Shown here one piece after another: positions 2,755 through 31,499 of a stretch of 64,000 nucleotides of DNA (positions are counted from its first letter, which is position 1; every line of letters begins with the position of its first letter). The notes below the pieces were generated by a model. It worked only from the letters and a program-made list of their open reading frames with translations, had not been told where the DNA came from and did no database searches. Both the position numbers and the translations under genes were made by a program. The DNA lies in IMG/VR virus record IMGVR_UViG_3300035181_002522, positions 100,332 through 164,331 of that record; one strand, given 5' to 3'. Origin of the DNA: a virus.

Positions 2755-2956
2755 AAAACCAGATGGTAAGTTAGTCTTTATAGTTGCTCTTATCGGCGGC
2801 GTAATAATTGCAGGTGCATCATATCAGGTCATTCATTCGTTTAAACCTAACCCTGACCCACAGTGTCTTGCGGCTTTAGTCGTAACATCAGATAATTGGT
2901 GGGAGCAATCGCCTGAACCAGAATGTACGCCAAACTTTGTTGATAATAAACACTGA
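2747..2956 (+). CDS. Hypothetical membrane protein
   Basis: Overlaps previous stop; one TM segment. Confidence 0.55.
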   Translation: MAEKPDGKLVFIVALIGGVIIAGASYQVIHSFKPNPDPQCLAALVVTSDNWWEQSPEPECTPNFVDNKH

Positions 2957-3074
2957 CTTTGTAAGCTCATGGGTAGAGCTCCCATACGAGGGTAGGAGTT
3001 GGTTCAATTCCAATGAAAGAATGGTTCCCGTAAATCCGCAATGGGGAGAGTAGGTTCGAATCCTACCAAAGTCA
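2955..3074 (+). ncRNA. tRNA-like RNA with two T-arms
   Basis: Acceptor GACTTTG/CAAAGTC, D-arm GCTCATGGGTAGAGC, T-arms GTTGG-TTCAATT-CCAAT and GTAGG-TTCGAAT-CCTAC. Confidence 0.65.
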
Positions 3075-3096
3075 ACAATATTGAAGAGAAAGAAAT

Positions 3097-4592: not shown

Positions 4593-4648
4593 CCATACAG
4601 TTTTACTTTTTATCATAAATACAAATTTAATAAAGTAAAACTGTATGG
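4593..4648 (+). promoter_or_regulatory. Late promoter inside a start-codon-sequestering hairpin
   Basis: Perfect 17-bp IR CCATACAGTTTTACTTT/AAAGTAAAACTGTATGG covering ATG 4645; TAAATA in the loop. Confidence 0.7.
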
Positions 4649-5505
4649 ATTATCAGAAGCATTATTCCGCTCTTATTGAACGGGCCAAAAATAGAATTAT
4701 TGATGGGTATACTGAACAACATCACATTATTCCAAATTGCTTTTTCAAAAACTCTTCTAGACGGAATACAAAACATTCGTCATTTGCTGGTTGGTTAGAT
4801 GGTAATCGGGATGATAAATCGAATTTAGTAAATTTGACACCAGAAGAACATTATGTTGCTCATCAATTATTAGTTAAAATATATCCGAATAATTTAGCAC
4901 TGTTATTTGCTGCTAATATGATGGGCAATACTAGAAAGGGAAATAAATGTTATGGTTGGTTAAAAAGAAAGCATTCTGATCGAATGAAAAATTTACCAAT
5001 TGAAATTAGATTAAAAATTTCAAAAGCTTTAAAAGGAAGAAAAGTTTCACCAGAAACACGTCAAAAAATTAGTAAATCTAAAAAGATCAATAATGCGATT
5101 AGAAAAAAATTGATATCAGAAGGCGTATTAGAAAAGCCTACACGCAAAACTTTCACACATTCTGAAGCCACAAAACTTAAATTTTCTAAAAATGCTAAAC
5201 AGTTACATCCAAATGGGCCCTTTTTTGGAAAAACTCATACTGAAGAAACAAAGCAAAAAATAAAACAAAGTAATACTAATTTTGTTCATACTGAAGAAAC
5301 AAAAGCTTATCTTTCTGAAATTAGAAAAGGTGAAAATAACCCAATGTTTGGCTCTATTGGGACGATGGCAGGAAGAACAGGAAGTTCACACCCAGCGTTT
5401 GGATCAAAATGGTATGTTAATACTATTACTGGAGAAATTAAAAAATTTCGACCTGAAGAAATAAATACTTTGTGTATAACATGGAAACCAGGAAGAAAAT
5501 TATGA
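4645..5505 (+). CDS. HNH homing endonuclease with NUMOD3 repeats
   Basis: YTEQHHIIP...NLVNLTPEEHYVAHQLL; HTEETKQKI and GENNPMFG motifs. Confidence 0.9.
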   Translation: MDYQKHYSALIERAKNRIIDGYTEQHHIIPNCFFKNSSRRNTKHSSFAGWLDGNRDDKSNLVNLTPEEHYVAHQLLVKIYPNNLALLFAANMMGNTRKGNKCYGWLKRKHSDRMKNLPIEIRLKISKALKGRKVSPETRQKISKSKKINNAIRKKLISEGVLEKPTRKTFTHSEATKLKFSKNAKQLHPNGPFFGKTHTEETKQKIKQSNTNFVHTEETKAYLSEIRKGENNPMFGSIGTMAGRTGSSHPAFGSKWYVNTITGEIKKFRPEEINTLCITWKPGRKL

Positions 5506-6585: not shown

Positions 6586-7590
6586 ATGCTCATAGCAATA
6601 ACTGGTCGAATGGCGATTGGAAAATCAACCATTATTCAAAATATGTCACTGTCAGTACCGCACGTGAAATTTGACCTTGATAAAGCCGCGCACAAATATA
6701 GTCAAAGTGCTGATATTCAAGAATTTATTGAAAGCAATCGAAGTACTGTTGATCAGACAACCAAAGACATTTGTTGGAAAAATATTTTTAGTGAATCAAA
6801 CAAATATCGGCAGTTTTGCGCGTTATATGAACCATACCTAATAAAGGAAGTTCAGGAAATAATTCATTTTTATCAATTCAGTGACGCCATAAAGATTGTT
6901 GAAGCTTCAGCACTGTACGCATATCCAAAATTACGACAGCTGTTTGATGCTGTTATTGAACTTGGCACTACCGCAGAATCACGAGAAGAAAATATTGAAA
7001 GTCGAGCTGATTTAGCTAATGAACGGTTTAAAGTTGAAATTGCTGACGCGCTGTACGTCTCTTGTGGCACTGACTTTCTTAATATTGGGCTCGGAAAAAA
7101 TCCAAGTATGATTCTGAGTAAGCTAATCACAAAACTCTACAGAAGATTAAATGGACAACATGTTTCTAGAGCGTATTTTTGCGGCTCATTTGAACCAATG
7201 ACTATCGGCCATTATGATATTTACGAGCGGGCCTGTGAAATGTTCGATGAGGTTATCTTTGTAAAAGCTAAGAACCCCAGCAAGTCAGACACTCTCAGAG
7301 AATCGCCTAAATACTTACAGTTAGTTACTACAACCTATATTCCAACGTTGCTCAGAGGTGAGTCTGGTGTCACTAATCTAATACGTGGTGTAAGGACGGA
7401 AAAAGATTATGTCGAAGCGATAGAATGGTTTCGTTCAATTGAAATCATTGTTGGTAGTGGTAAAGTGGAATTGATATTGTTGCCTGCTTCTAAAGAGCTT
7501 GAAAATGTAAGTTCGACCTTTGTTAGAGCTCTTGAAAAATTATCTGAAAACGATGCGAAACGGTTTATTGTGCCTAATCATTTTGCCTAA
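6586..7590 (+). CDS. Dephospho-CoA kinase (CoaE-like) fused to phosphopantetheine adenylyltransferase (CoaD-like)
   Basis: N-terminal IAITGRMAIGKST P-loop; C-terminal YFCGSFEPMTIGH, LIRGVR and VSSTFVR motifs. Confidence 0.8.
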   Translation: MLIAITGRMAIGKSTIIQNMSLSVPHVKFDLDKAAHKYSQSADIQEFIESNRSTVDQTTKDICWKNIFSESNKYRQFCALYEPYLIKEVQEIIHFYQFSDAIKIVEASALYAYPKLRQLFDAVIELGTTAESREENIESRADLANERFKVEIADALYVSCGTDFLNIGLGKNPSMILSKLITKLYRRLNGQHVSRAYFCGSFEPMTIGHYDIYERACEMFDEVIFVKAKNPSKSDTLRESPKYLQLVTTTYIPTLLRGESGVTNLIRGVRTEKDYVEAIEWFRSIEIIVGSGKVELILLPASKELENVSSTFVRALEKLSENDAKRFIVPNHFA

Positions 7591-8028
7591 AGACCGAAAA
7601 GAGATATAGAAATCTCTAAATGTTATTTTGCTTCTTAGCAGTCTTTAGGTATTATGATTGTTCATGTTAAATTTCTCGGGGGGAGAAGAATTATGGGAAC
7701 TAAAGAATCATTTAAAAAATATAGTGGTTTTACAGAATTGGCATTATTAATAAATCTGTTCCCAGCGCTGATGACATTTTTCCTGTCGGCGATGTATAAT
7801 GAATCAGCAAAAGAACGTAAAATAATGTACATTATGAAAAAATAGTGTATAATATCTTTCGTGCTGAAGCGGTAAGGAATTCAAGATGAAAGAAAATATG
7901 TTTATTCATATAGCAAAGTTGATTATGTTAATCCAATTAAAGCGCAAAGCTATGCGGTTGTAGATATATCCATAGGATTCGTCGTTGTTATTGCTTTATT
8001 TGCAATTATAGCTACGAGGACTTGAAAA

Positions 8029-8244
8029 ATGAGTGACAGTATTTTAATGATGTTTGCTATGTTGTTAGCAATTACTTTTATTGCTAACATTGTTTTTTGT
8101 ATAATTGAGCTTCATAATCTATTGAAAGCCAAAGTTCAAAAAGCACGGTTGGAAGTCGATGAACTCTTACATTGTAAAAATAGAGAATTGGGAAAAATAT
8201 TCCTAACTTTTTGGGTCCGGTACGCGAATTGGTTCAGCGGGTAA
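8029..8244 (+). CDS. Hypothetical membrane protein (3' end runs into tRNA-like RNA)
   Basis: GAGG RBS; N-terminal TM segment. Confidence 0.45.
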   Translation: MSDSILMMFAMLLAITFIANIVFCIIELHNLLKAKVQKARLEVDELLHCKNRELGKIFLTFWVRYANWFSG

Positions 8245-8343
8245 AAACGTGGTTTGCATTTTTTGTCAGTAATGACCGCTCGTAAATCGTTATCGTGTCC
8301 GTAAAACACCTGTATGTGGGTTCGAGTCCCACCCGGCCCACCA
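8213..8343 (+). ncRNA. tRNA-ended RNA with conserved ~52-nt insert, copy A
   Basis: Acceptor GGGTCCGG/CCGGCCC-ACCA, D-arm, T-arm GTGGG-TTCGAGT-CCCAC, insert 8243-8294. Confidence 0.8.
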
Positions 8344-8349
8344 AATTAT

Positions 8350-8478
8350 GACACTATAGCTCAGTTGGTAGAGCACCTAAACATCGTTTTCAATTTTTTG
8401 CTAGAAATAGCCGACTAGAAAATGGTTATCGTCATTTGGAGACACTGTATGTGGGTTCGAGTCCCACCTGCCTTCTCA
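8350..8478 (+). ncRNA. tRNA-like RNA with conserved insert, copy B (chimeric acceptor)
   Basis: Canonical D-arm TAGCTCAGTTGGTAGAGC, insert 8379-8430, T-arm identical to copy A; acceptor strands do not pair. Confidence 0.7.
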
Positions 8479-8492
8479 ACTTTATTAAGCAT

Positions 8493-8831
8493 ATGCTAAT
8501 TACTGTTTTAAAATCAAAGCTACATCATGTTACCGTCACTGAAGCTGATATTAATTATGTTGGTTCATGTGCAATTGATGTAGAATTATTAGAAGCTGCT
8601 GAAATTCAAGAAAATGAGCAAATTCACATCTATAATGTGAATAATGGCGAACGTTTTACCACGTATGCCATCGCTTCTGCAATTCCTGGAATTATCTCAG
8701 TTAGGGGTTCCGCCACTAGAAAAGTAGTGGTTGGAGATACCTTGATAATTACCGCTTTTGGCCAAATTACCAAAGGCGAAATTTATAGACCAAATATCGT
8801 TTTTGTTAATAGTAAAAATCTCATAACATAA
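8493..8831 (+). CDS. panD: Aspartate 1-decarboxylase
   Basis: LKSKLHHVTVTEADINYVGSCAID (G-S cleavage site) and NGERFTTYAI; start at ATG 8493. Confidence 0.92.
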   Translation: MLITVLKSKLHHVTVTEADINYVGSCAIDVELLEAAEIQENEQIHIYNVNNGERFTTYAIASAIPGIISVRGSATRKVVVGDTLIITAFGQITKGEIYRPNIVFVNSKNLIT

Positions 8832-8844
8832 AAGAGGAATAGAA

Positions 8845-9609
8845 ATGCCTAAACTACATGAAGTGCTCGCAGTTGAAAAAACTCGTGCAAATGCAGCAAC
8901 AAAATTGCTCGACGAAACTGCAACAAAATTTCGTAAAGAACATTTTTTTGCTGGCCACATCAAAACTTTGAGAATGCTGGCTGATAGCCCTGCGAATGCT
9001 GCTATTGAAGCTGCATCTCGCGACGACAAAGCTTTGCCAACAACCGTTCCAGAAACTCTAGAATACGCTCTGAAATTCTGGGCAGATGCTGAAGACGTTA
9101 CATTCGCAAAAAATCGCACAAATCAAATCGCTAATGCTGATCTTCTGTTTCATGGCGCCGTTTTAGTTCCTAATGTTCCGGTTGACGAGTTGCTCGGCCT
9201 GGAAGTTCGTTTGGAAAAGTTGCGTCATGTTATCGATGCAATGCCAATCTTGGATGCTTCTAGAGAGTGGTCTCTTTCAAGCTCTGGTCGTAAAGGCGAA
9301 TATGTTTCAGTTACTTCCGAAGTAACCTCAAAAACTGAAAAAGTTTCTACTCCGGTTATCTTGTACGAAGCAACCGATCATCATCCCGCGCAAATCCAAG
9401 TTGTTAATACCGACAAAGTCGTTGGTACCTTTACCAAACTGTTAATCTCTGGTGCTGCATCTTCAAAACAAAAAGCAGATGCGATTTCCACCATTGACGA
9501 ATTGCTGGTAGAAGTAAAACAAGCACGTCAGCGTGCTAACAGCGTTGAAATCATCAACGAAAAAATCGGTTCAACCATCACCGATCTAATTTTGGCAGCG
9601 TTTAAATAA
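8845..9609 (+). CDS. Uncharacterised helical protein of a widespread family
   Basis: KLHEVLAVEK...VPVDELLGLE...LYEATDHHPAQI...VKQARQRAN pattern; GAGG RBS; codon usage of a highly expressed gene. Confidence 0.8.
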   Translation: MPKLHEVLAVEKTRANAATKLLDETATKFRKEHFFAGHIKTLRMLADSPANAAIEAASRDDKALPTTVPETLEYALKFWADAEDVTFAKNRTNQIANADLLFHGAVLVPNVPVDELLGLEVRLEKLRHVIDAMPILDASREWSLSSSGRKGEYVSVTSEVTSKTEKVSTPVILYEATDHHPAQIQVVNTDKVVGTFTKLLISGAASSKQKADAISTIDELLVEVKQARQRANSVEIINEKIGSTITDLILAAFK

Positions 9610-9830
9610 TGAAAGAGCTATCGTTACCGCAAGGAACTAAAATTCTCTGCGGTAACGGGCATTTAGTTGCTGTATTGAATAGGTCTCTTTATCGAGGAGA
9701 CACTGATTACAGTGATGCTTTTGATTATGCTGAAGGTCAAATGCTTCCAACAAAAGGTCAATTATGTCCACTTCATTGTCATTGTGGAAGTGTATGGCTT
9801 GACAAATTTAAATGCGTTAAAATTGAATAA
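9609..9830 (+). CDS. Small Cys-rich protein
   Basis: CGNGH...CHCGS possible metal ligands; start overlaps previous stop. Confidence 0.6.
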   Translation: MKELSLPQGTKILCGNGHLVAVLNRSLYRGDTDYSDAFDYAEGQMLPTKGQLCPLHCHCGSVWLDKFKCVKIE

Positions 9831-9880
9831 AACAGTTTCTTTTTGAATGCTATTGTGATAATATAGCTTCAAGTTAAAAG

Positions 9881-10083
9881 TTTGAGCCATCCTTATAATT
9901 ATTTTTATTTTGAAATTGCGTTAAATTGCCTGCTGGTTCGAGTCCAGCTCCACATACAGAGAGCTTAATAAGTTTTCTGTATGTGGATAGGAGAATTGGT
10001 ATATCCCAAGATCTTTAAGAACTCATATGGAGTCGATCTTGTGTAATTTAAAGTGAGCCTTTTTAATCTTCGTATCGCTCAAC
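9881..10083 (+). ncRNA. Circularly permuted tRNA-mimic RNA 1 (YrlA-like architecture)
   Basis: T-arm 9932-9948, 18-bp closed acceptor-like hairpin 9949-9987, then D-arm; termini TTGAGC/GCTCAA pair. Confidence 0.75.
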
Positions 10084-10101
10084 ATACGTAGACTAGAAGT
10101 A

Positions 10102-10281
10102 AAGTTTTAACAACAAATACGGTCTTCTCATTCATTAAATGAGAACTGGAAGTCGCGGGTTCAAATCCCGTCCCGACGGCAATTGATTTTAGAAATAGAG
10201 TTAATTGCCGTCGGGTAGCTCAGTGGTTAGAGTGCCAGTAAAATAACATCGTCATCATCGTAGGTTGTTTGATTAAAACTT
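10102..10281 (+). ncRNA. Circularly permuted tRNA-mimic RNA 2 (YrlA-like architecture)
   Basis: T-arm 10155-10171, 20-bp acceptor-like hairpin closed by GAAA 10172-10215, D-arm TAGCTCAGTGGTTAGAGT; ACTGG/CCAGT helix; termini AAGTTTTAA/TTAAAACTT pair. Confidence 0.82.
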
Positions 10282-10513
10282 GAAAGAATATCATTCTTAA
10301 TGCCCGCCTAGAATATAGGAAATTTGGACTTTGCGGGCATTCTATAAAAGAGCTTTTAACTGAAAGTTTTTTTATAGAATGATAACATTAAGGATATAAT
10401 ATGTCAATATTACGAATTGCTACAGCACTTATATAAGTGCTGTATGGTTTGATGGCATACATTTTTAATATTGACGTTAAGAAACAAGCTGAAAAAGAAG
10501 AGAAAAAATAATT

Positions 10514-10639
10514 GCCGGTATAGTTTAATGGTAGAACTGCCAAAAAACATCGTTTACATTTTTTGTTAGCAATAACCGCTAGTAAATGGTTATCCATTCC
10601 AAGGGGAAGATCGTGGTTCGATTCCACGTGCCGGCTCCA
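10514..10639 (+). ncRNA. tRNA-ended RNA with conserved insert, copy C (Gly-like)
   Basis: Acceptor GCCGGTA/TGCCGGC-TCCA; insert 10542-10594; ATTCCAA loop; T-arm CGTGG-TTCGATT-CCACG. Confidence 0.82.
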
Positions 10640-10662
10640 CTTTTTAAGATGAGAGAATTATT

Positions 10663-10920
10663 ATGAACATTGACAGCCATATGGCATATGATAGAAAAAT
10701 ATTCATTCAGCACTCTGTTGCTGAAATAGCAAAACAAGATAAAGCAGCACAAAGCGTCTTTTTGCAGCGCCTTAAAAATCTACGAATGTTTAATGATTTG
10801 TTCAATGATAATCTCCCTAAAAACAATTGGGATTTACGTTATACTGCAATGAGATGTAAGTCAACAAGGTTCATTAAGATGGATCTTGTTCTAATGCAAA
10901 TTAGATACCTAATGTGTTAG
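10663..10920 (+). CDS. Hypothetical protein
   Basis: ORF with purine-rich RBS. Confidence 0.5.
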   Translation: MNIDSHMAYDRKIFIQHSVAEIAKQDKAAQSVFLQRLKNLRMFNDLFNDNLPKNNWDLRYTAMRCKSTRFIKMDLVLMQIRYLMC

Positions 10921-11093
10921 GCGGTAAAAGTGCGAATTATTAAAATTGTGAATGAAACAAATTTTTTTGGTTTACTTTATAATGGTACTATTGTACTATG
11001 TACAAAAGTTGAAGCTGATTATTGTGCAACAGTTAGATTTGGAAAAGCTGGGCGAATGTCGGTATTTGCAATGAGAACTAATTAGGAGCTGTT

Positions 11094-11291
11094 ATGACAT
11101 TTTTGTGGTTGCTTTTCACGACAACTATTGGTGCTATTGCCGGTGGAATGGTTTATGCTTCGCCATGGATTGGCAGTGCAATAGGATTTGTTGTTGGGTT
11201 CATTCTTAATATGATAATAAAAAGTGCTACCGGCAATTTTGGTTTTTTTGGGGAAGACCCTTTCAATTTTGATGGTGGTTATGGAGACTAA
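11094..11291 (+). CDS. Small membrane protein
   Basis: AGGAG RBS; two TM segments. Confidence 0.6.
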   Translation: MTFLWLLFTTTIGAIAGGMVYASPWIGSAIGFVVGFILNMIIKSATGNFGFFGEDPFNFDGGYGD

Positions 11292-11293
11292 AT

Positions 11294-11740
11294 GTGGAAA
11301 TCATAATTCTAAGGTTGCCTTTTGGCTCAACTGTTAGAGATCTTGAAATCTTTATTGAACCCGCTCTAAAGGTATGCTGGTTCATCAATAAACGATCTCT
11401 GATCGACAGATTAAAGATCAAGGTTTATATTGATCGAAAAGTCGACGGCATCGAACTGCATGGTCATATCTTTACTAAAGATGAACATCTTGGCAGACAG
11501 CTGTGTAAGAAGCTAAATGGAAAATACTTCAAAAATGAAAAACCAGTCGCGGTCAGAGAATATCAAATCCGTAGTTGGCAAAATGATCGTCGTAGACCAA
11601 CTCTTGAAAAAGTTGATGTACTTGGCACTGGTTCAAGACAAGGAGAACGCCGTCGTGGAAAACAACTCGATGAGATAACCGATGCTAACGCCAACGTGCT
11701 TTTCATTGGTGTTAAAAATTTTAATCGGAAACAATTTTAA
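11294..11740 (+). CDS. RRM-fold-like RNA-binding protein
   Basis: IIILRLP...HGHI...KKLNGKYF..PVAVREYQIRSWQNDRR pattern recalled from Methylococcales RNA-binding proteins. Confidence 0.55.
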   Translation: MEIIILRLPFGSTVRDLEIFIEPALKVCWFINKRSLIDRLKIKVYIDRKVDGIELHGHIFTKDEHLGRQLCKKLNGKYFKNEKPVAVREYQIRSWQNDRRRPTLEKVDVLGTGSRQGERRRGKQLDEITDANANVLFIGVKNFNRKQF

Positions 11741-11972
11741 TAGTTTACAAATCGAGAGTTTATATTATAATAACTCTCGTATTTTTATTATAAATGAAAT
11801 TTTATTTGTATTAAATTGAAAATTTACTTAATAAAAATGAGAAAAACAGATAGTTAATAGCATATTTGTTAATAGTGAAAATACCTATAATTTAATGATA
11901 GATGGCATTTTAATAATTGTAAATTTAAAATGCAAATTTAAGGGATGTTGAAAATCTACTAAATAAAATATC

Positions 11973-12090
11973 GGGATAGTGACGGAATTGGTATACGTAC
12001 AAGACTTTTTCAAGAACTTGAAACTATTCAAGTTCTTCTGAAAATCTTGCGGCTTCGGCCATGTGGGTTCGAGTCCCACCTATCCCACCA
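11973..12090 (+). tRNA. tRNA-Leu with 33-nt hairpin insertion in the anticodon loop
   Basis: Acceptor GGGATAG/CTATCCC-ACCA, Leu-type D-loop and variable arm GGCTTCGGCC; 40 nt between CAAGA and TCTTG. Confidence 0.85.
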
Positions 12091-12647
12091 AATTTATAAT
12101 GCATTTACGACAAAACCAAACATTTTAGAGTTAATAAACTCTAACAGAGATCATTTACGTCAATTAGAAAAGTTTTCTATTGGCGTTTCTGTTGTTATAA
12201 TTGTCAGTGAAGATGAATACACTCCATCTATTCGTACTGCTATTGGTCATGTTATCGGATTTGCTCCAGGTCGATTGACCATTGGAGATGACATTAGAGT
12301 AATTGTTCAAACTGCAGCTGGTAGTAAACGTTCAATAACTCCAGAAAATTTAATGTTGCTGAGTGAAACATGAACATTATTCCACAACCACCACTCACGA
12401 GAATAATTAGAGAAGGTAGCACTAGGTTTTGTCCTTTTTTGCGGAAGTAGCTTAGTGATAAATGTTCTTGGAAAATCACAAGGATGTTTATAACCAGAGT
12501 GTCATAACTTCCACCAATTGTCTGGTAGAGCAGTTGAGGCATTAAGTACTATTGAACAAGTTAAGCAGATTAAAGCAGATTATGATGTTAGTCTTAATGA
12601 AGCTAAGCGTATTTTTGCATGCCTTATTGAATATGTTGTTCAGAAAT

Positions 12648-17684: not shown

Positions 17685-18210
17685 GTCTTATTAGTTCTGG
17701 TATGGACAAAACGAAAACCGAAAGGCTTTATTGATCACTTAGCTGAGTAGGATGCAGATAGCCTAGTTGAAAATTTAATAATCGTGAGTGTTAAATTAGT
17801 AAGTTAGATTTATCTCGAAAATGTCTCCCTCTGTGGCAGAGGGAGAGTGCTCAGGTGAGTTAGTGGAACTAATAAGATTTGGACAGTTAAAATGGGTAAA
17901 AAACTGTTGCCGTTTTAAATGCTCGGGAATGGTTATAAATTTGCAAATTAGATGTTTGCTTCGTCGCAAAAAGCTTCGAAATGGAGCTAATAAATAAATG
18001 TATAAATACATCATATTGATGTATAATAGTTTAAAAGTAAAAACCGCTGTTAATGGGTTATCATGATTAGATATAAACCCCATAAACCTTTTTTGTTTTT
18101 ACTTTAACAAGTTTTGAAGAACCATTCAATCTTGGTTATCCGATATAAAATCAGACTAATTCCAAGATTATCATTTTGTTTTACAATTATTTCCTATGGG
18201 GAATATTAAG

Positions 18211-18408: not shown

Positions 18409-18545
18409 GATTAAGTCATAATGCCATAAAGCTAGCTAAATTTAGCCAGCTTATATCGGTTTTATGCACAGGTTTGACAAACTGCTTGAAGTTGATTATC
18501 TTTTATGGAAAAAGAGTCGTGGGTTCAACTCCCACCTTGAATCCA
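18409..18545 (+). ncRNA. Degenerate tRNA-like RNA with large internal domain
   Basis: T-arm GTGGG-TTCAACT-CCCAC, CCA end, GATTAAG/CTTGAATC pairing, internal hairpins. Confidence 0.4.
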
Positions 18546-18838
18546 TAATGGAACTTTAACTCAACTTTGTTTTTTGTTTGTCTCTCACTTTGGAGCACCT
18601 CCTTGTCGGCGCTTATATCAAATAGACAAGGGACTAATTATGAATGAATGTCGTCAAAAATTCTGCTTAGGAAAACAAAAAGAATTTAAACGCCAAGGTG
18701 GATGGATGAGTGGATACGTTCTTCCTGTTGGAAGAACGTGGAAATGAATGGCCAACAAAAAGGTTCGACATTCAGCTGTTGCTTCCGGTGGAGCATATAA
18801 AAAGAGTTGGGAATTTTTTGAATGGTGTTAAAATATTA

Positions 18839-25979: not shown

Positions 25980-26041
25980 ATAAAGATGTACTTTTTGAAA
26001 AAAGGTGATAGAATAATTCTTTGATTTAAAGTATTATTTGC

Positions 26042-26113
26042 TCCGCGCAATGCACAAGGTGTGCAGCCGGACTGTTAATCCGTGTGAGCGGGGTTCGATT
26101 CCCTGGGGCGGAG
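26042..26113 (+). tRNA. tRNA-Asn(GTT), CCA not encoded
   Basis: CGGA-CTGTTAA-TCCG; D-arm and T-arm present. Confidence 0.85.
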
Positions 26114-26160
26114 CAAATAATATTTGAAAAATTATTTTAACAATTCTTTGAGTAGTAGAA

Positions 26161-31015: not shown

Positions 31016-31433
31016 ATGAATATGATAGAATTAAGTGAAAAATCAATAACAGTTCTAGACAAACTAGAACTGGATGAAAATAAAATTTTAGTTGTATCGG
31101 TTGATGTCGGAACATTTCCAAAGGAAAAAGCAAAGCAATTTATGGCAGCCGTTGGGAATGCTTTTGAAAAACAACTAAACTGCCATACAATAGTGATGCC
31201 ATCTTCTATTAAACTTTCAGTTATCGATAAACAAAATGAACCTGAATAAAAAGTTTGATGACCTAAAAGAACCACAGCGGTTTTTAGTATTCATCACAGT
31301 ATTCACTACAATTATGTTGTTATTAAATGTCGGTTTCACATTTTCACAGCTATGGTTAAGTGGTATAATGTTAATTCTCATTGGTGTAATTGGCATATCA
31401 AGAGTGTGCTATATGTCTCATTTGGAGAAGTAA
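31016..31433 (+). CDS. Two small proteins (31016-31249; 31236-31433 membrane)
   Basis: Overlapping ORFs; VDVGTFPKEKAKQFM recalls a T4 portal segment. Confidence 0.55.
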
Positions 31434-31499
31434 CTTAACTGGTAGAGCAAGTCCTTCATATGGACAAGGTCAAGGGTTTGAGTCCCTTTTTCTCCACCA
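31424..31499 (+). tRNA. tRNA-CAT (Met/Ile)
   Basis: GGAGAAG/TTTCTCC-ACCA; GTCC-TTCATAT-GGAC. Confidence 0.8.

What the first reader, a model, noticed from the sequence alone, without database searches (positions are those of the whole stretch)
8213..10639. Candidate novel RNA system: one tRNA-mimic / Y-RNA-like fold in two circular permutations around an uncharacterised protein
Seen: three RNAs (8213, 8350, 10514) have tRNA order with open acceptor ends (CCA in two), a long inserted stem closed by a GNRA loop, and an anticodon-like hairpin. Two RNAs (9881, 10102) have T-arm, closed acceptor, D-arm order with the long stem open. RNA 10102 keeps the same junction elements: AACATCGT after the D-arm pairs with ACGGT, as ATCGT pairs with ATGGT in copy C, and a hairpin precedes the T-arm. 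It therefore reads as a permutation of the same fold. Established: bacterial YrlA Y RNAs are tRNA mimics with a closed acceptor stem that tether Ro60. Inference: a phage ribonucleoprotein system, perhaps decoys for anticodon nucleases or RNA repair/decay tethers, with the 254-aa protein as a likely partner.
Basis: partly seen in the sequence, partly recalled or inferred. Interest (0 to 1): 0.9.

Follow-up and report, generated by a model that had tools for sequence, protein, structure and literature searches.

The report
Two tRNA-mimic RNA systems in phage
This stretch of a giant phage holds two separate sets of tRNA look-alike RNAs: three tRNA-shaped RNAs carrying what looks like the docking stem for the phage's own Ro60 protein, and one two-headed "inside-out tRNA" RNA that follows an unstudied protein gene (DUF7873) in many unrelated phages; I found neither form in the papers or RNA family library I could search.

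Summary

They are not one system around one protein.

(1) A (8213-8342), B (8350-8475) and C (10514-10639) are tRNA bodies. Each has a ~52-nt arm inserted between the D arm and a short anticodon-like hairpin. This arm has the layout of the Ro60-binding basal stem of YrlA-type Y RNAs: P2, a CG-loop opposite a pyrimidine strand, P1, then UUAUC. Here it is closed by a GNRA loop. The same arm, open-ended, forms the base of the RNA next to this phage's own Ro60 gene. It also recurs in Y RNAs upstream of Ro60 in most of the other Ro60 loci fetched. So A-C are tRNA-order, un-permuted YrlA-like Y RNAs.

(2) D and E (about 9884-10290) are the two heads of one RNA. Each head runs T arm, closed acceptor, D arm. 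This RNA follows the DUF7873 gene in 10 of 11 loci from distant phages, and 8 of 9 complete genomes among them lack Ro60.

Function is inferred. There are no expression or binding data. Earlier follow-ups in this scan reported both classes on other DNA. I found neither in Rfam or in the searchable papers.

The parts
8213..8342 (+). RNA A: tRNA-order Y RNA. 7-bp acceptor with one mismatch, D arm, Ro60-type arm 8241-8294 capped by GUAA, UUAUC, anticodon-like hairpin (loop CCGUAAA), T arm, encoded ACCA.
   Evidence: R1 74 bits
8350..8475 (+). RNA B: same build (arm 8376-8430, GAAA cap, loop AUUUGGA) but no acceptor pairing and no CCA. Its 3' half is a paralogue of A's.
   Evidence: (Rfam tRNA 22 bits, partial)
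8493..8831 (+). Aspartate 1-decarboxylase (PanD) gene. Not part of the RNA systems.
   Evidence: PF02261, E 1e-38, residues 20-130 of ORF 8436-8831
8845..9609 (+). DUF7873 protein gene (254 aa), candidate partner of the D/E RNA.
   Evidence: (PF25283, 233 bits)
9884..10290 (+). Two-headed tRNA-mimic RNA. Conservation against L037 continues to about 10385. Ends are not mapped.
   Evidence: (z -7.8)
9932..10006 (+). Head D: T arm 9932-9948, closed acceptor hairpin 9949-9987, UA, D arm 9990-10006.
   Evidence: R2 57.8 bits
10076..10107 (+). Nearly invariant hairpin between the heads (CUUCGUAUCGCUCAACAUACGUAGACUAGAAG). Role unknown.
10155..10239 (+). Head E: T arm 10155-10171, closed acceptor 10172-10215, UA, D arm 10218-10233. 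The 5-bp anticodon-stem equivalent is CCAGU 10235-10239 paired with ACUGG upstream of the T arm.
   Evidence: (YrlA 29 bits, gathering score 69); R2 67.8 bits
10514..10639 (+). RNA C: tRNA-order Y RNA. Perfect 7-bp acceptor, D arm, arm 10540-10594 capped by GCAA, UUAUC, anticodon-like loop AUUCCAA (UCC), T arm, encoded UCCA.
   Evidence: Rfam tRNA 40.6 bits with insertion; z -2.7
18034..18106 (+). Free-standing small Y-like RNA with the same arm in open form: 11-bp outer stem, CGCUG, P1, UUAUC, cargo, P1', CCUUUUUUG.
   Evidence: z -3.1
18455..18585 (+). Free-standing Y-like RNA with the open-form arm. Its cargo contains a T arm (YrlB-like).
   Evidence: z -2.7

Best explanation
The stretch holds two different tRNA-mimic RNA systems.

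(i) A, B and C are tRNA-order Y RNAs. Each is a tRNA body whose 26/27 junction carries the Ro60 (Rsr) docking stem of YrlA-type Y RNAs, closed by a GNRA loop. The acceptor end is open, and CCA is encoded in A and C. Their inferred partner is the phage's own Ro60, encoded about 48 kb upstream. By analogy with known Y RNAs, the arm would hold Ro60 while the tRNA-shaped body engages a tRNA-binding factor.

(ii) D and E are the two heads of one RNA of roughly 400-500 nt. Each head is an inside-out tRNA (T arm, closed acceptor, D arm). This RNA is the conserved downstream neighbour, and probably the partner, of the DUF7873 protein, independently of Ro60.

Shown: the structures, their covariation, the homology of the arm, and the synteny.

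Inferred: expression, binding and function.
For: Arm identity:
- The RNA directly upstream of this genome's Ro60 ORF begins ACAACUUAGA-UUG-CCGAUCG-AAAUUGG-UUAUC and ends CCGAUUUC-ACUACUUGCUG-UCUAAGUUGU. This is the same P2 / CG-loop / P1 / UUAUC / pyrimidine-strand layout as in A-C, opened at P2.
- A descriptor scan placed this module on the Ro60 strand within about 1 kb upstream of the gene in 11 of the 14 Ro60 loci fetched from IMG/VR. Loops there read CGAAG, CGGAG or CGAUG, matching the published YrlA motif GNCGAAN0-1G (motif from PMC4201824).
- The YrlA of cultured Gordonia phage BearBQ shows the same layout.
- tRNA-embedded capped copies also lie directly upstream of Ro60 in L040, L054 and L061, and in two other contigs, L030 and L037.
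- P1 and P2 covary.
- Ro60 is intact: TROVE plus vWA_Ro60 domains.

D/E system:
- A generic search for T arm plus a hairpin of at least 7 bp plus D arm found such units in the gap after DUF7873 in 10 of 11 loci. Hosts are Ralstonia, Klebsiella, Rhizobium, Arthrobacter, Vibrio, Gordonia (two lineages) and Pseudanabaena, plus this phage and a relative.
- All 12 T-stem and acceptor pairs show changes on both sides across 17 units; covariation score 1.07 against 0.31 in shuffles.
- 8 of 9 complete DUF7873 phage genomes have no TROVE match.
Against: - No RNA-seq, end-mapping or binding data exist for any of these RNAs.
- In A-C the CG-loop is degenerate (CCGCUCG, CCGACUAG, CCGCUAG) compared with GNCGAAG.
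- A-C lie 48 kb from Ro60, not beside it.
- B cannot form an acceptor stem.
- 7 of 10 tRNA-order copies keep anticodon-type loops (N-U-NNN-R-A). That would also fit tRNAs whose arm is removed.
- The units used for one search were chosen because they pair, so the 100% pairing is partly by construction.
- The DUF7873 link rests on synteny alone. The Microcoleus locus (L048) showed no unit.
- The DUF7873 model has no informative structural match.
- An earlier scan note (e1-2703945) reports that one pre-set co-occurrence test went against the pairing as a general rule. I did not test that here.
Confidence: 0.7

Rival explanations
1. A-C are ordinary decoding tRNA genes (Tyr-GUA-like, Gln-UUG, Gly-UCC) interrupted at position 26/27 by a new kind of small intron. 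The arm is excised and the halves ligated to give normal tRNAs.
For: - 7-bp acceptors and encoded CCA in A and C.
- Canonical D and T loops.
- 7-nt loops with U33 and R37 in B, C and most homologues.
- The Rfam tRNA model accepts C and the L037 copy when an insertion is allowed.
Against: - The arm is homologous to free-standing Y-RNA stems that sit beside Ro60 genes and are not inside tRNAs.
- After removal, only a 2-4-bp anticodon stem would remain.
- A has C at position 33. B has no acceptor stem.
- The island already has canonical tRNA-Gly(UCC) and tRNA-Tyr(GUA).
- By inspection there is no bulge-helix-bulge geometry at the junctions.
- No RtcB in the fragment held, although it is only 46% complete.
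Confidence: 0.12
2. One reading: all five RNAs are one fold in two permutations and work with the 254-aa DUF7873 protein as a single ribonucleoprotein system.
For: - The RNAs flank the gene.
- E shares AACAUCGU/ACGGU with the A-C junction.
- All are YrlA-like in overall wiring.
Against: - D/E lack the CG-loop and pyrimidine strand. E has UUCUC where A-C have UUAUC.
- The shared pairing is not kept in the L037 homologue.
- DUF7873 with D/E occurs in 8 complete phage genomes without Ro60, and I saw no tRNA-embedded Ro60-type arm in the flanks I read.
- Capped-arm tRNAs occur beside Ro60 genes. I did not check those contigs for DUF7873.
Confidence: 0.1
3. The elements are decaying tRNA pseudogenes and dimeric-tRNA junctions that only look like structured RNAs.
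For: - B lacks an acceptor stem.
- The R2 model also scores plain tRNA-tRNA junctions at 20-43 bits.
- Chen et al. warn about such false positives.
Against: - Compensatory changes in every tested helix.
- The arm is conserved across contigs with different GC content.
- D/E are syntenic across phages of several bacterial phyla.
- D/E score 54-71 bits against at most 46 for anything else, although they are training sequences.
Confidence: 0.03

Closest known systems
YrlA (Y RNA-like A; Rfam RF02553; Chen et al. 2014, PMC4201824; structure in Wang et al. 2018, 10.1101/312249)
   Same: - A tRNA-like T arm/D arm core joined to a stem with the Ro60-contact motif GNCGAAN0-1G.
- Encoded in phages that carry Ro60.
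- D/E share YrlA's T arm, closed acceptor, D arm order.
   Different: - A-C run in normal tRNA order: open acceptor, encoded CCA, an anticodon-like hairpin, and a basal stem capped by a tetraloop. [quoted passage not shown]
- D/E lack the Ro60 motif, come as two heads in one RNA, and travel with DUF7873 rather than Ro60.
- All score below the Rfam gathering score: 22-38 bits against 69.
[quoted passage not shown] 2014, PMC4201824)
   Same: It ends up as a Y RNA with an opened acceptor stem and a CCA end.
   Different: There the open form arises by cutting a closed-acceptor transcript into two pieces. Here the open form is encoded directly as one chain with the other end capped.
Yrl1/Yrl2 of Thermus phage phiLo with phage Ro60 (PMC12135203)
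   Same: Phage-encoded Y-like RNAs upstream of a phage Ro60, with a stem-bulge-stem carrying a CGAA motif. They were shown to bind phage Ro60 and host PNPase.
   Different: As far as the paper describes, those are simple stem-bulge-stem RNAs. No tRNA body in tRNA order was reported.
Circularly permuted tRNA genes of red algae and archaea (cited in Wang et al. 2018) and two-piece tmRNA from permuted genes (my own knowledge)
   Same: 3'-half-before-5'-half gene order with a closed acceptor hairpin, as in D/E.
   Different: Those are processed at bulge-helix-bulge motifs into decoding tRNAs. D/E have no anticodon loop and no such motif.

Membership tests
YrlA-type Y RNA (RF02553) | Basal stem with an internal loop carrying the Ro60-contact motif GNCGAAN0-1G on the strand leading into the tRNA-like domain | tested here: inconclusive
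   - A-C have the same P2 / CG-loop / P1 layout, but the motif is degenerate: CCGCUCG, CCGACUAG, CCGCUAG.
- The Ro60-adjacent RNA of this genome reads GCCGAUCG.
- Homologous arms in other Ro60 loci read GCCGAAG exactly.
- D/E have no such loop.
YrlA-type Y RNA (RF02553) | tRNA-like domain with conserved T arm and D arm | tested here: met
   All five RNAs have a GGTTCRANTCC T loop and a GG-containing D loop.
YrlA-type Y RNA (RF02553) | Order T arm, closed acceptor hairpin, D arm; no free CCA end; no anticodon loop | tested here: not met
   - Not met by A-C: D arm before T arm, open acceptor, CCA in A and C, 7-nt anticodon-like loops.
- Met by D and E.
YrlA-type Y RNA (RF02553) | Reaches the Rfam gathering score (69 bits) | tested here: not met
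   E scores 29 bits and the A/B junction 22 bits. D/E homologues score 32-37.6 bits.
YrlA-type Y RNA (RF02553) | Encoded with a Ro60/Rsr gene | tested here: met
   - Ro60 (TROVE plus vWA_Ro60) is in the same genome, 48 kb upstream.
- tRNA-order homologues lie directly upstream of Ro60 in L040, L054 and L061.
- For D/E this is not met as a class: 8 of 9 complete DUF7873 phage genomes lack TROVE.
YrlA-type Y RNA (RF02553) | Physically bound by Ro60 | not testable with these tools
   Needs immunoprecipitation or gel-shift.
Canonical tRNA (RF00005) | Cloverleaf with a 7-bp acceptor and a 5-bp anticodon stem directly after position 26 | tested here: not met
   - A ~52-nt arm lies between position 26 and a 2-4-bp stub stem.
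- B has no acceptor stem.
- ARAGORN calls none of the three.
- The Rfam tRNA model accepts C (40.6 bits) only with a 69-nt insertion. B scores 22 bits and A gives no hit.
Intron-bearing or permuted tRNA genes of the archaeal/algal type | Bulge-helix-bulge motif at the junctions, plus a splicing endonuclease and RtcB-type ligase | tested here: inconclusive
   By inspection there is no bulge-helix-bulge geometry at 26/27. RtcB (PF01139) was not found, but the record is only 46% complete. The endonuclease was not searched for.
DUF7873-associated two-headed tRNA-mimic RNA (seen repeatedly in this scan; not found in print) | Lies just downstream of a DUF7873 gene and carries T arm, closed acceptor, D arm heads without a Ro60 motif | tested here: met
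   - D/E start about 275 nt after the DUF7873 stop codon.
- The same arrangement is present in 10 of 11 loci.
- Covariation.

The most novel reading that the evidence does not exclude
A and C are chargeable, ribosome- or synthetase-competent tRNAs that stay fused to a Ro60 docking arm. They would let the phage bring Ro60, and through it an exonuclease such as PNPase, to the translation or tRNA-repair machinery, or act as Ro60-guarded decoys for host anticodon nucleases. In parallel, DUF7873 with its two-headed RNA would be a second, Ro60-independent tRNA-mimic particle.
Probability: 0.15. Interest if true: 0.85.

Novelty: new variant of a known kind. Interest (0 to 1): 0.62.

Why it matters
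Published Y RNAs of bacteria and phages are described as circularly permuted tRNA mimics without a CCA end or anticodon loop. How they arose from tRNAs is debated: a dimeric-tRNA origin versus processing of permuted forms (Wang et al. 2018).

RNAs that keep the normal tRNA order, an open CCA end and an anticodon-type loop while carrying the Ro60 docking stem bear directly on that question. They also suggest that Ro60 can be tethered to something that recognises a complete tRNA.

The DUF7873 RNA would be a second tRNA-mimic particle that does not need Ro60. It is widespread in phage tRNA islands and has no assigned function. Cultured phages carry it (Rhizobium RHph_Y65, Gordonia, Klebsiella, Ralstonia phiRSL1), so it can be tested at the bench.

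Tried and rejected
- Known ribozyme or riboswitch for the arm: no Rfam 15 family other than tRNA, YrlA and chance-level hits matched 7900-12300, even at E up to 10.
- Near-identical phage in GenBank: none by megablast.
- An exact-pattern scan of IMG/VR for the AT-rich form of the arm gave 23 stretches, of which only one (L030) was real.
- My first loose descriptor scans of the AT-rich genome gave mostly false positives.
- The R1 model, built from 4 AT-rich copies, missed most GC-rich arms.
- Expression: no RNA holder is listed for this DNA. The 4 holders are sediment and microbial-mat DNA runs kept as contigs, so I did not lay reads.
- DUF7873 function: profile search against PDB sequences found nothing below E 0.03. 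Foldseek against PDB found nothing at E <= 0.001. VIA-align gave only helical-hairpin matches with Z below 8.
- RtcB was not found in the fragment.
- The record behind L030 was not held, so I could not search it for Ro60. The L037 contig fragment (35% complete) showed no TROVE match.
- Burroughs and Aravind 2016 and the Wolin-lab reviews were not readable here.
- No complex prediction was run.
Full report
**Context.** The window is the last 64 kb of a 164-kb IMG/VR virus record that CheckV rates 46% complete, so this is a jumbo phage. The DNA is held only by sediment and microbial-mat metagenomes. Positions 2.9-33 kb form a tRNA island. It has 11 ARAGORN tRNAs, further Rfam-only tRNAs and several odd tRNA-like genes.

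**Observation.** All five RNAs are real.

A (8213-8342) and C (10514-10639) have the following parts, in order:
- a 7-bp acceptor stem and a D arm;
- a ~52-nt insert;
- the invariant UUAUC;
- a short hairpin with a 7-nt anticodon-type loop;
- a T arm and an encoded CCA.

B (8350-8475) has all of these except acceptor pairing and CCA.

The insert folds as P1 (9 bp), an asymmetric internal loop and P2 (4 bp) closed by GUAA, GAAA or GCAA. The internal loop has a pyrimidine strand (AUUUUUU-type) opposite CGCUNG.

I collected ten such RNAs from six contigs: this phage, L030 (three copies), L037, L040, L054 and L061. Across them P1 and P2 pair in 93% of cells, and 9 of 13 pairs change on both sides. 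The covariation score is 0.70 against 0.28 in shuffles (0 of 500 reach it), and slid registers score at most 0.14.

D and E run T arm, long closed acceptor hairpin, UA, D arm. The 9880-10300 stretch folds with z = -7.8, and the two ends of E form a long terminal stem.

**What the insert is.** I confirmed a 530-aa ORF with TROVE and Ro60-vWA domains at G000 C1 59069-60661 on the minus strand.

The ~320-nt RNA directly upstream of that ORF begins ACAACUUAGA-UUG-CCGAUCG-AAAUUGG-UUAUC and ends CCGAUUUC-ACUACUUGCUG-UCUAAGUUGU. This is the same outer stem, CG-loop, P1, UUAUC and pyrimidine strand as the insert, opened at P2 and closed at the other end by cargo.

I then fetched 14 Ro60 loci from IMG/VR. 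A descriptor scan found the module on the Ro60 strand within about 1 kb upstream of the gene in 11 of them. The scan also produced off-target hits elsewhere in these loci, so I read three loci by eye to confirm it. Three findings came out of this:
- L039 has at least ten copies within 2.3 kb.
- The loops read CGAAG, CGGAG or CGAUG, which is the published YrlA Rsr-contact motif GNCGAAN0-1G (PMC4201824).
- P1 differs in sequence in nearly every copy but always pairs.

The canonical YrlA and a small Y RNA of cultured Gordonia phage BearBQ have exactly this layout. It includes UUAUC after P1 and AAAC before P1'.

The insert therefore has the layout of the Ro60-binding basal stem of YrlA-type Y RNAs, capped by a tetraloop.

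tRNA-embedded capped copies lie directly upstream of Ro60 in L040, L054 and L061, next to canonical YrlA-type and small Y RNAs. In the window itself, 18034-18106 and 18455-18585 are free-standing open-form copies. 18107-18180 is a weaker candidate.

**Relation to the literature.** Wang et al. describe YrlA as lacking a free CCA end and an anticodon loop, and as resembling circularly permuted tRNAs. They speculate that some YrlA could be processed to resemble canonical tRNAs. A-C are that wiring encoded directly: YrlA with the acceptor opened and the basal stem closed. I found no description of this form in the searchable papers and no Rfam family for it. Earlier follow-ups in this scan reported the same class on other DNA, and my reading agrees with theirs.

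**D/E and the 254-aa protein.** The protein is Pfam DUF7873 (233 bits). It has 375 relatives in metagenomes and occurs in 75 GenBank phage records. Hosts in those records include Vibrio, Rhizobium, Gordonia, Klebsiella, Serratia, Arthrobacter, Ralstonia and cyanobacteria.

In nine cultured phages plus L037, the gene is followed by an unannotated gap or by tiny dubious ORFs. A generic search for a T loop, a hairpin of at least 7 bp and a D arm found one or two such units in 10 of the 11 loci. The Microcoleus locus had none.

Across 17 units, all 12 T-stem and acceptor pairs change on both sides. The covariation score is 1.07 against 0.31 in shuffles. The units were chosen because they pair, so the 100% pairing is partly by construction.

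Many acceptor hairpins are exactly 7 bp with an extra hairpin in the loop. The first head has a Leu-type UG-GCGGAAUUGGUAGACGC D arm in several phages.

A model built from these units (R2) scores them at 54-71 bits. It scores canonical YrlA next to Ro60 at 30-46 bits and plain tRNA-tRNA junctions lower. The shared core is therefore real, but the families are separable. In this genome D and E are the only strong hits.

D/E lack the CG-loop and pyrimidine strand. E has UUCUC where the Ro60-type arm has UUAUC.

Eight of nine complete DUF7873 phage genomes have no TROVE match. Rhizobium RHph_Y65 has both.

The window-L037 alignment shows continuous conservation from about 9884 to about 10385, including an almost invariant hairpin at 10076-10107. 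This fits one RNA with two heads, as earlier follow-ups in the scan concluded.

The AlphaFold model of DUF7873 (pLDDT 86) has long helices plus a long beta-hairpin sheet. It has no informative match in the PDB.

**Mechanism.** The structures, the homology of the arm and the synteny are shown. The functions below are inferred.
- A-C: the arm would dock Ro60 while the tRNA body engages a tRNA-binding partner. This follows known Y RNAs that tether Ro60 to PNPase (PMC4201824, PMC12135203).
- D/E: a DUF7873 ribonucleoprotein of unknown activity.

The main rival for A-C is a tRNA gene with a removable arm. It is kept alive by the anticodon-type loops in 7 of 10 copies. It is weakened by four observations:
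- the arm is homologous to free-standing Y RNAs;
- only a 2-4-bp anticodon stem would remain after removal;
- canonical tRNA-Gly(UCC) and tRNA-Tyr(GUA) are already present;
- there is no bulge-helix-bulge geometry at the junctions.

**Verdict.** This is a new variant of a known kind (Y RNAs), in two separate systems. Nothing is known about expression: no RNA run holds this DNA.

Noticed in passing
window 11973-12090: A tRNA with a class-II variable arm and encoded CCA. Its anticodon loop is replaced by a 36-nt near-palindromic hairpin. Rfam tRNA 45.9 bits; fold z = -5.0.
   Followed up: partly
window 2955-3075; L037:7220-7344: A tRNA-like gene with a second, nested T-arm-like hairpin between the D arm and the real T arm. 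It is conserved in the related contig (Rfam tRNA 35.3 bits there).
   Followed up: partly
window 26040-26115: A tRNA-like gene with an odd long D region and loop CUGUUAA (Asn-type GUU). Neither ARAGORN nor the Rfam gathering search called it.
   Followed up: no
window 31424-31496: Rfam tRNA hit (52.9 bits) that ARAGORN did not report.
   Followed up: no
window 6586-7590 and 8493-8831: Phage-encoded coenzyme-A pathway genes inside the tRNA island: a CoaE-like/cytidylyltransferase-like fusion, and aspartate decarboxylase (PanD).
   Followed up: partly
window 4645-5505: Homing endonuclease with NUMOD3 motifs (phrog_655) at the edge of the tRNA island.
   Followed up: no
L039:700-2960: At least ten tandem small Y-RNA units upstream of one phage Ro60 gene. 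All share the outer stem GGGU/AUCC but have different P1 helices and cargo. This array is unusually large.
   Followed up: partly
window 9609-9830: A 73-aa Cys-rich ORF that overlaps the DUF7873 stop codon. It has no family match and is not present at this position in L037. It may not be a real gene.
   Followed up: no
window 10340-10385; L037:11740-11790: A conserved A/U-rich inverted repeat (CAUUCUAUAAAA...UUUUUUAUAGAA) after the D/E RNA. It could be a terminator or a promoter element.
   Followed up: no
L030:600-1460 (minus strand): A GC-richer 180-kb phage contig has three to four tRNA-order Y RNAs among several Met/Ile-type tRNAs. One has anticodon UAU. In two of them the pyrimidine strand is CCACCUU- or CCCCUU-like.
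   Followed up: partly
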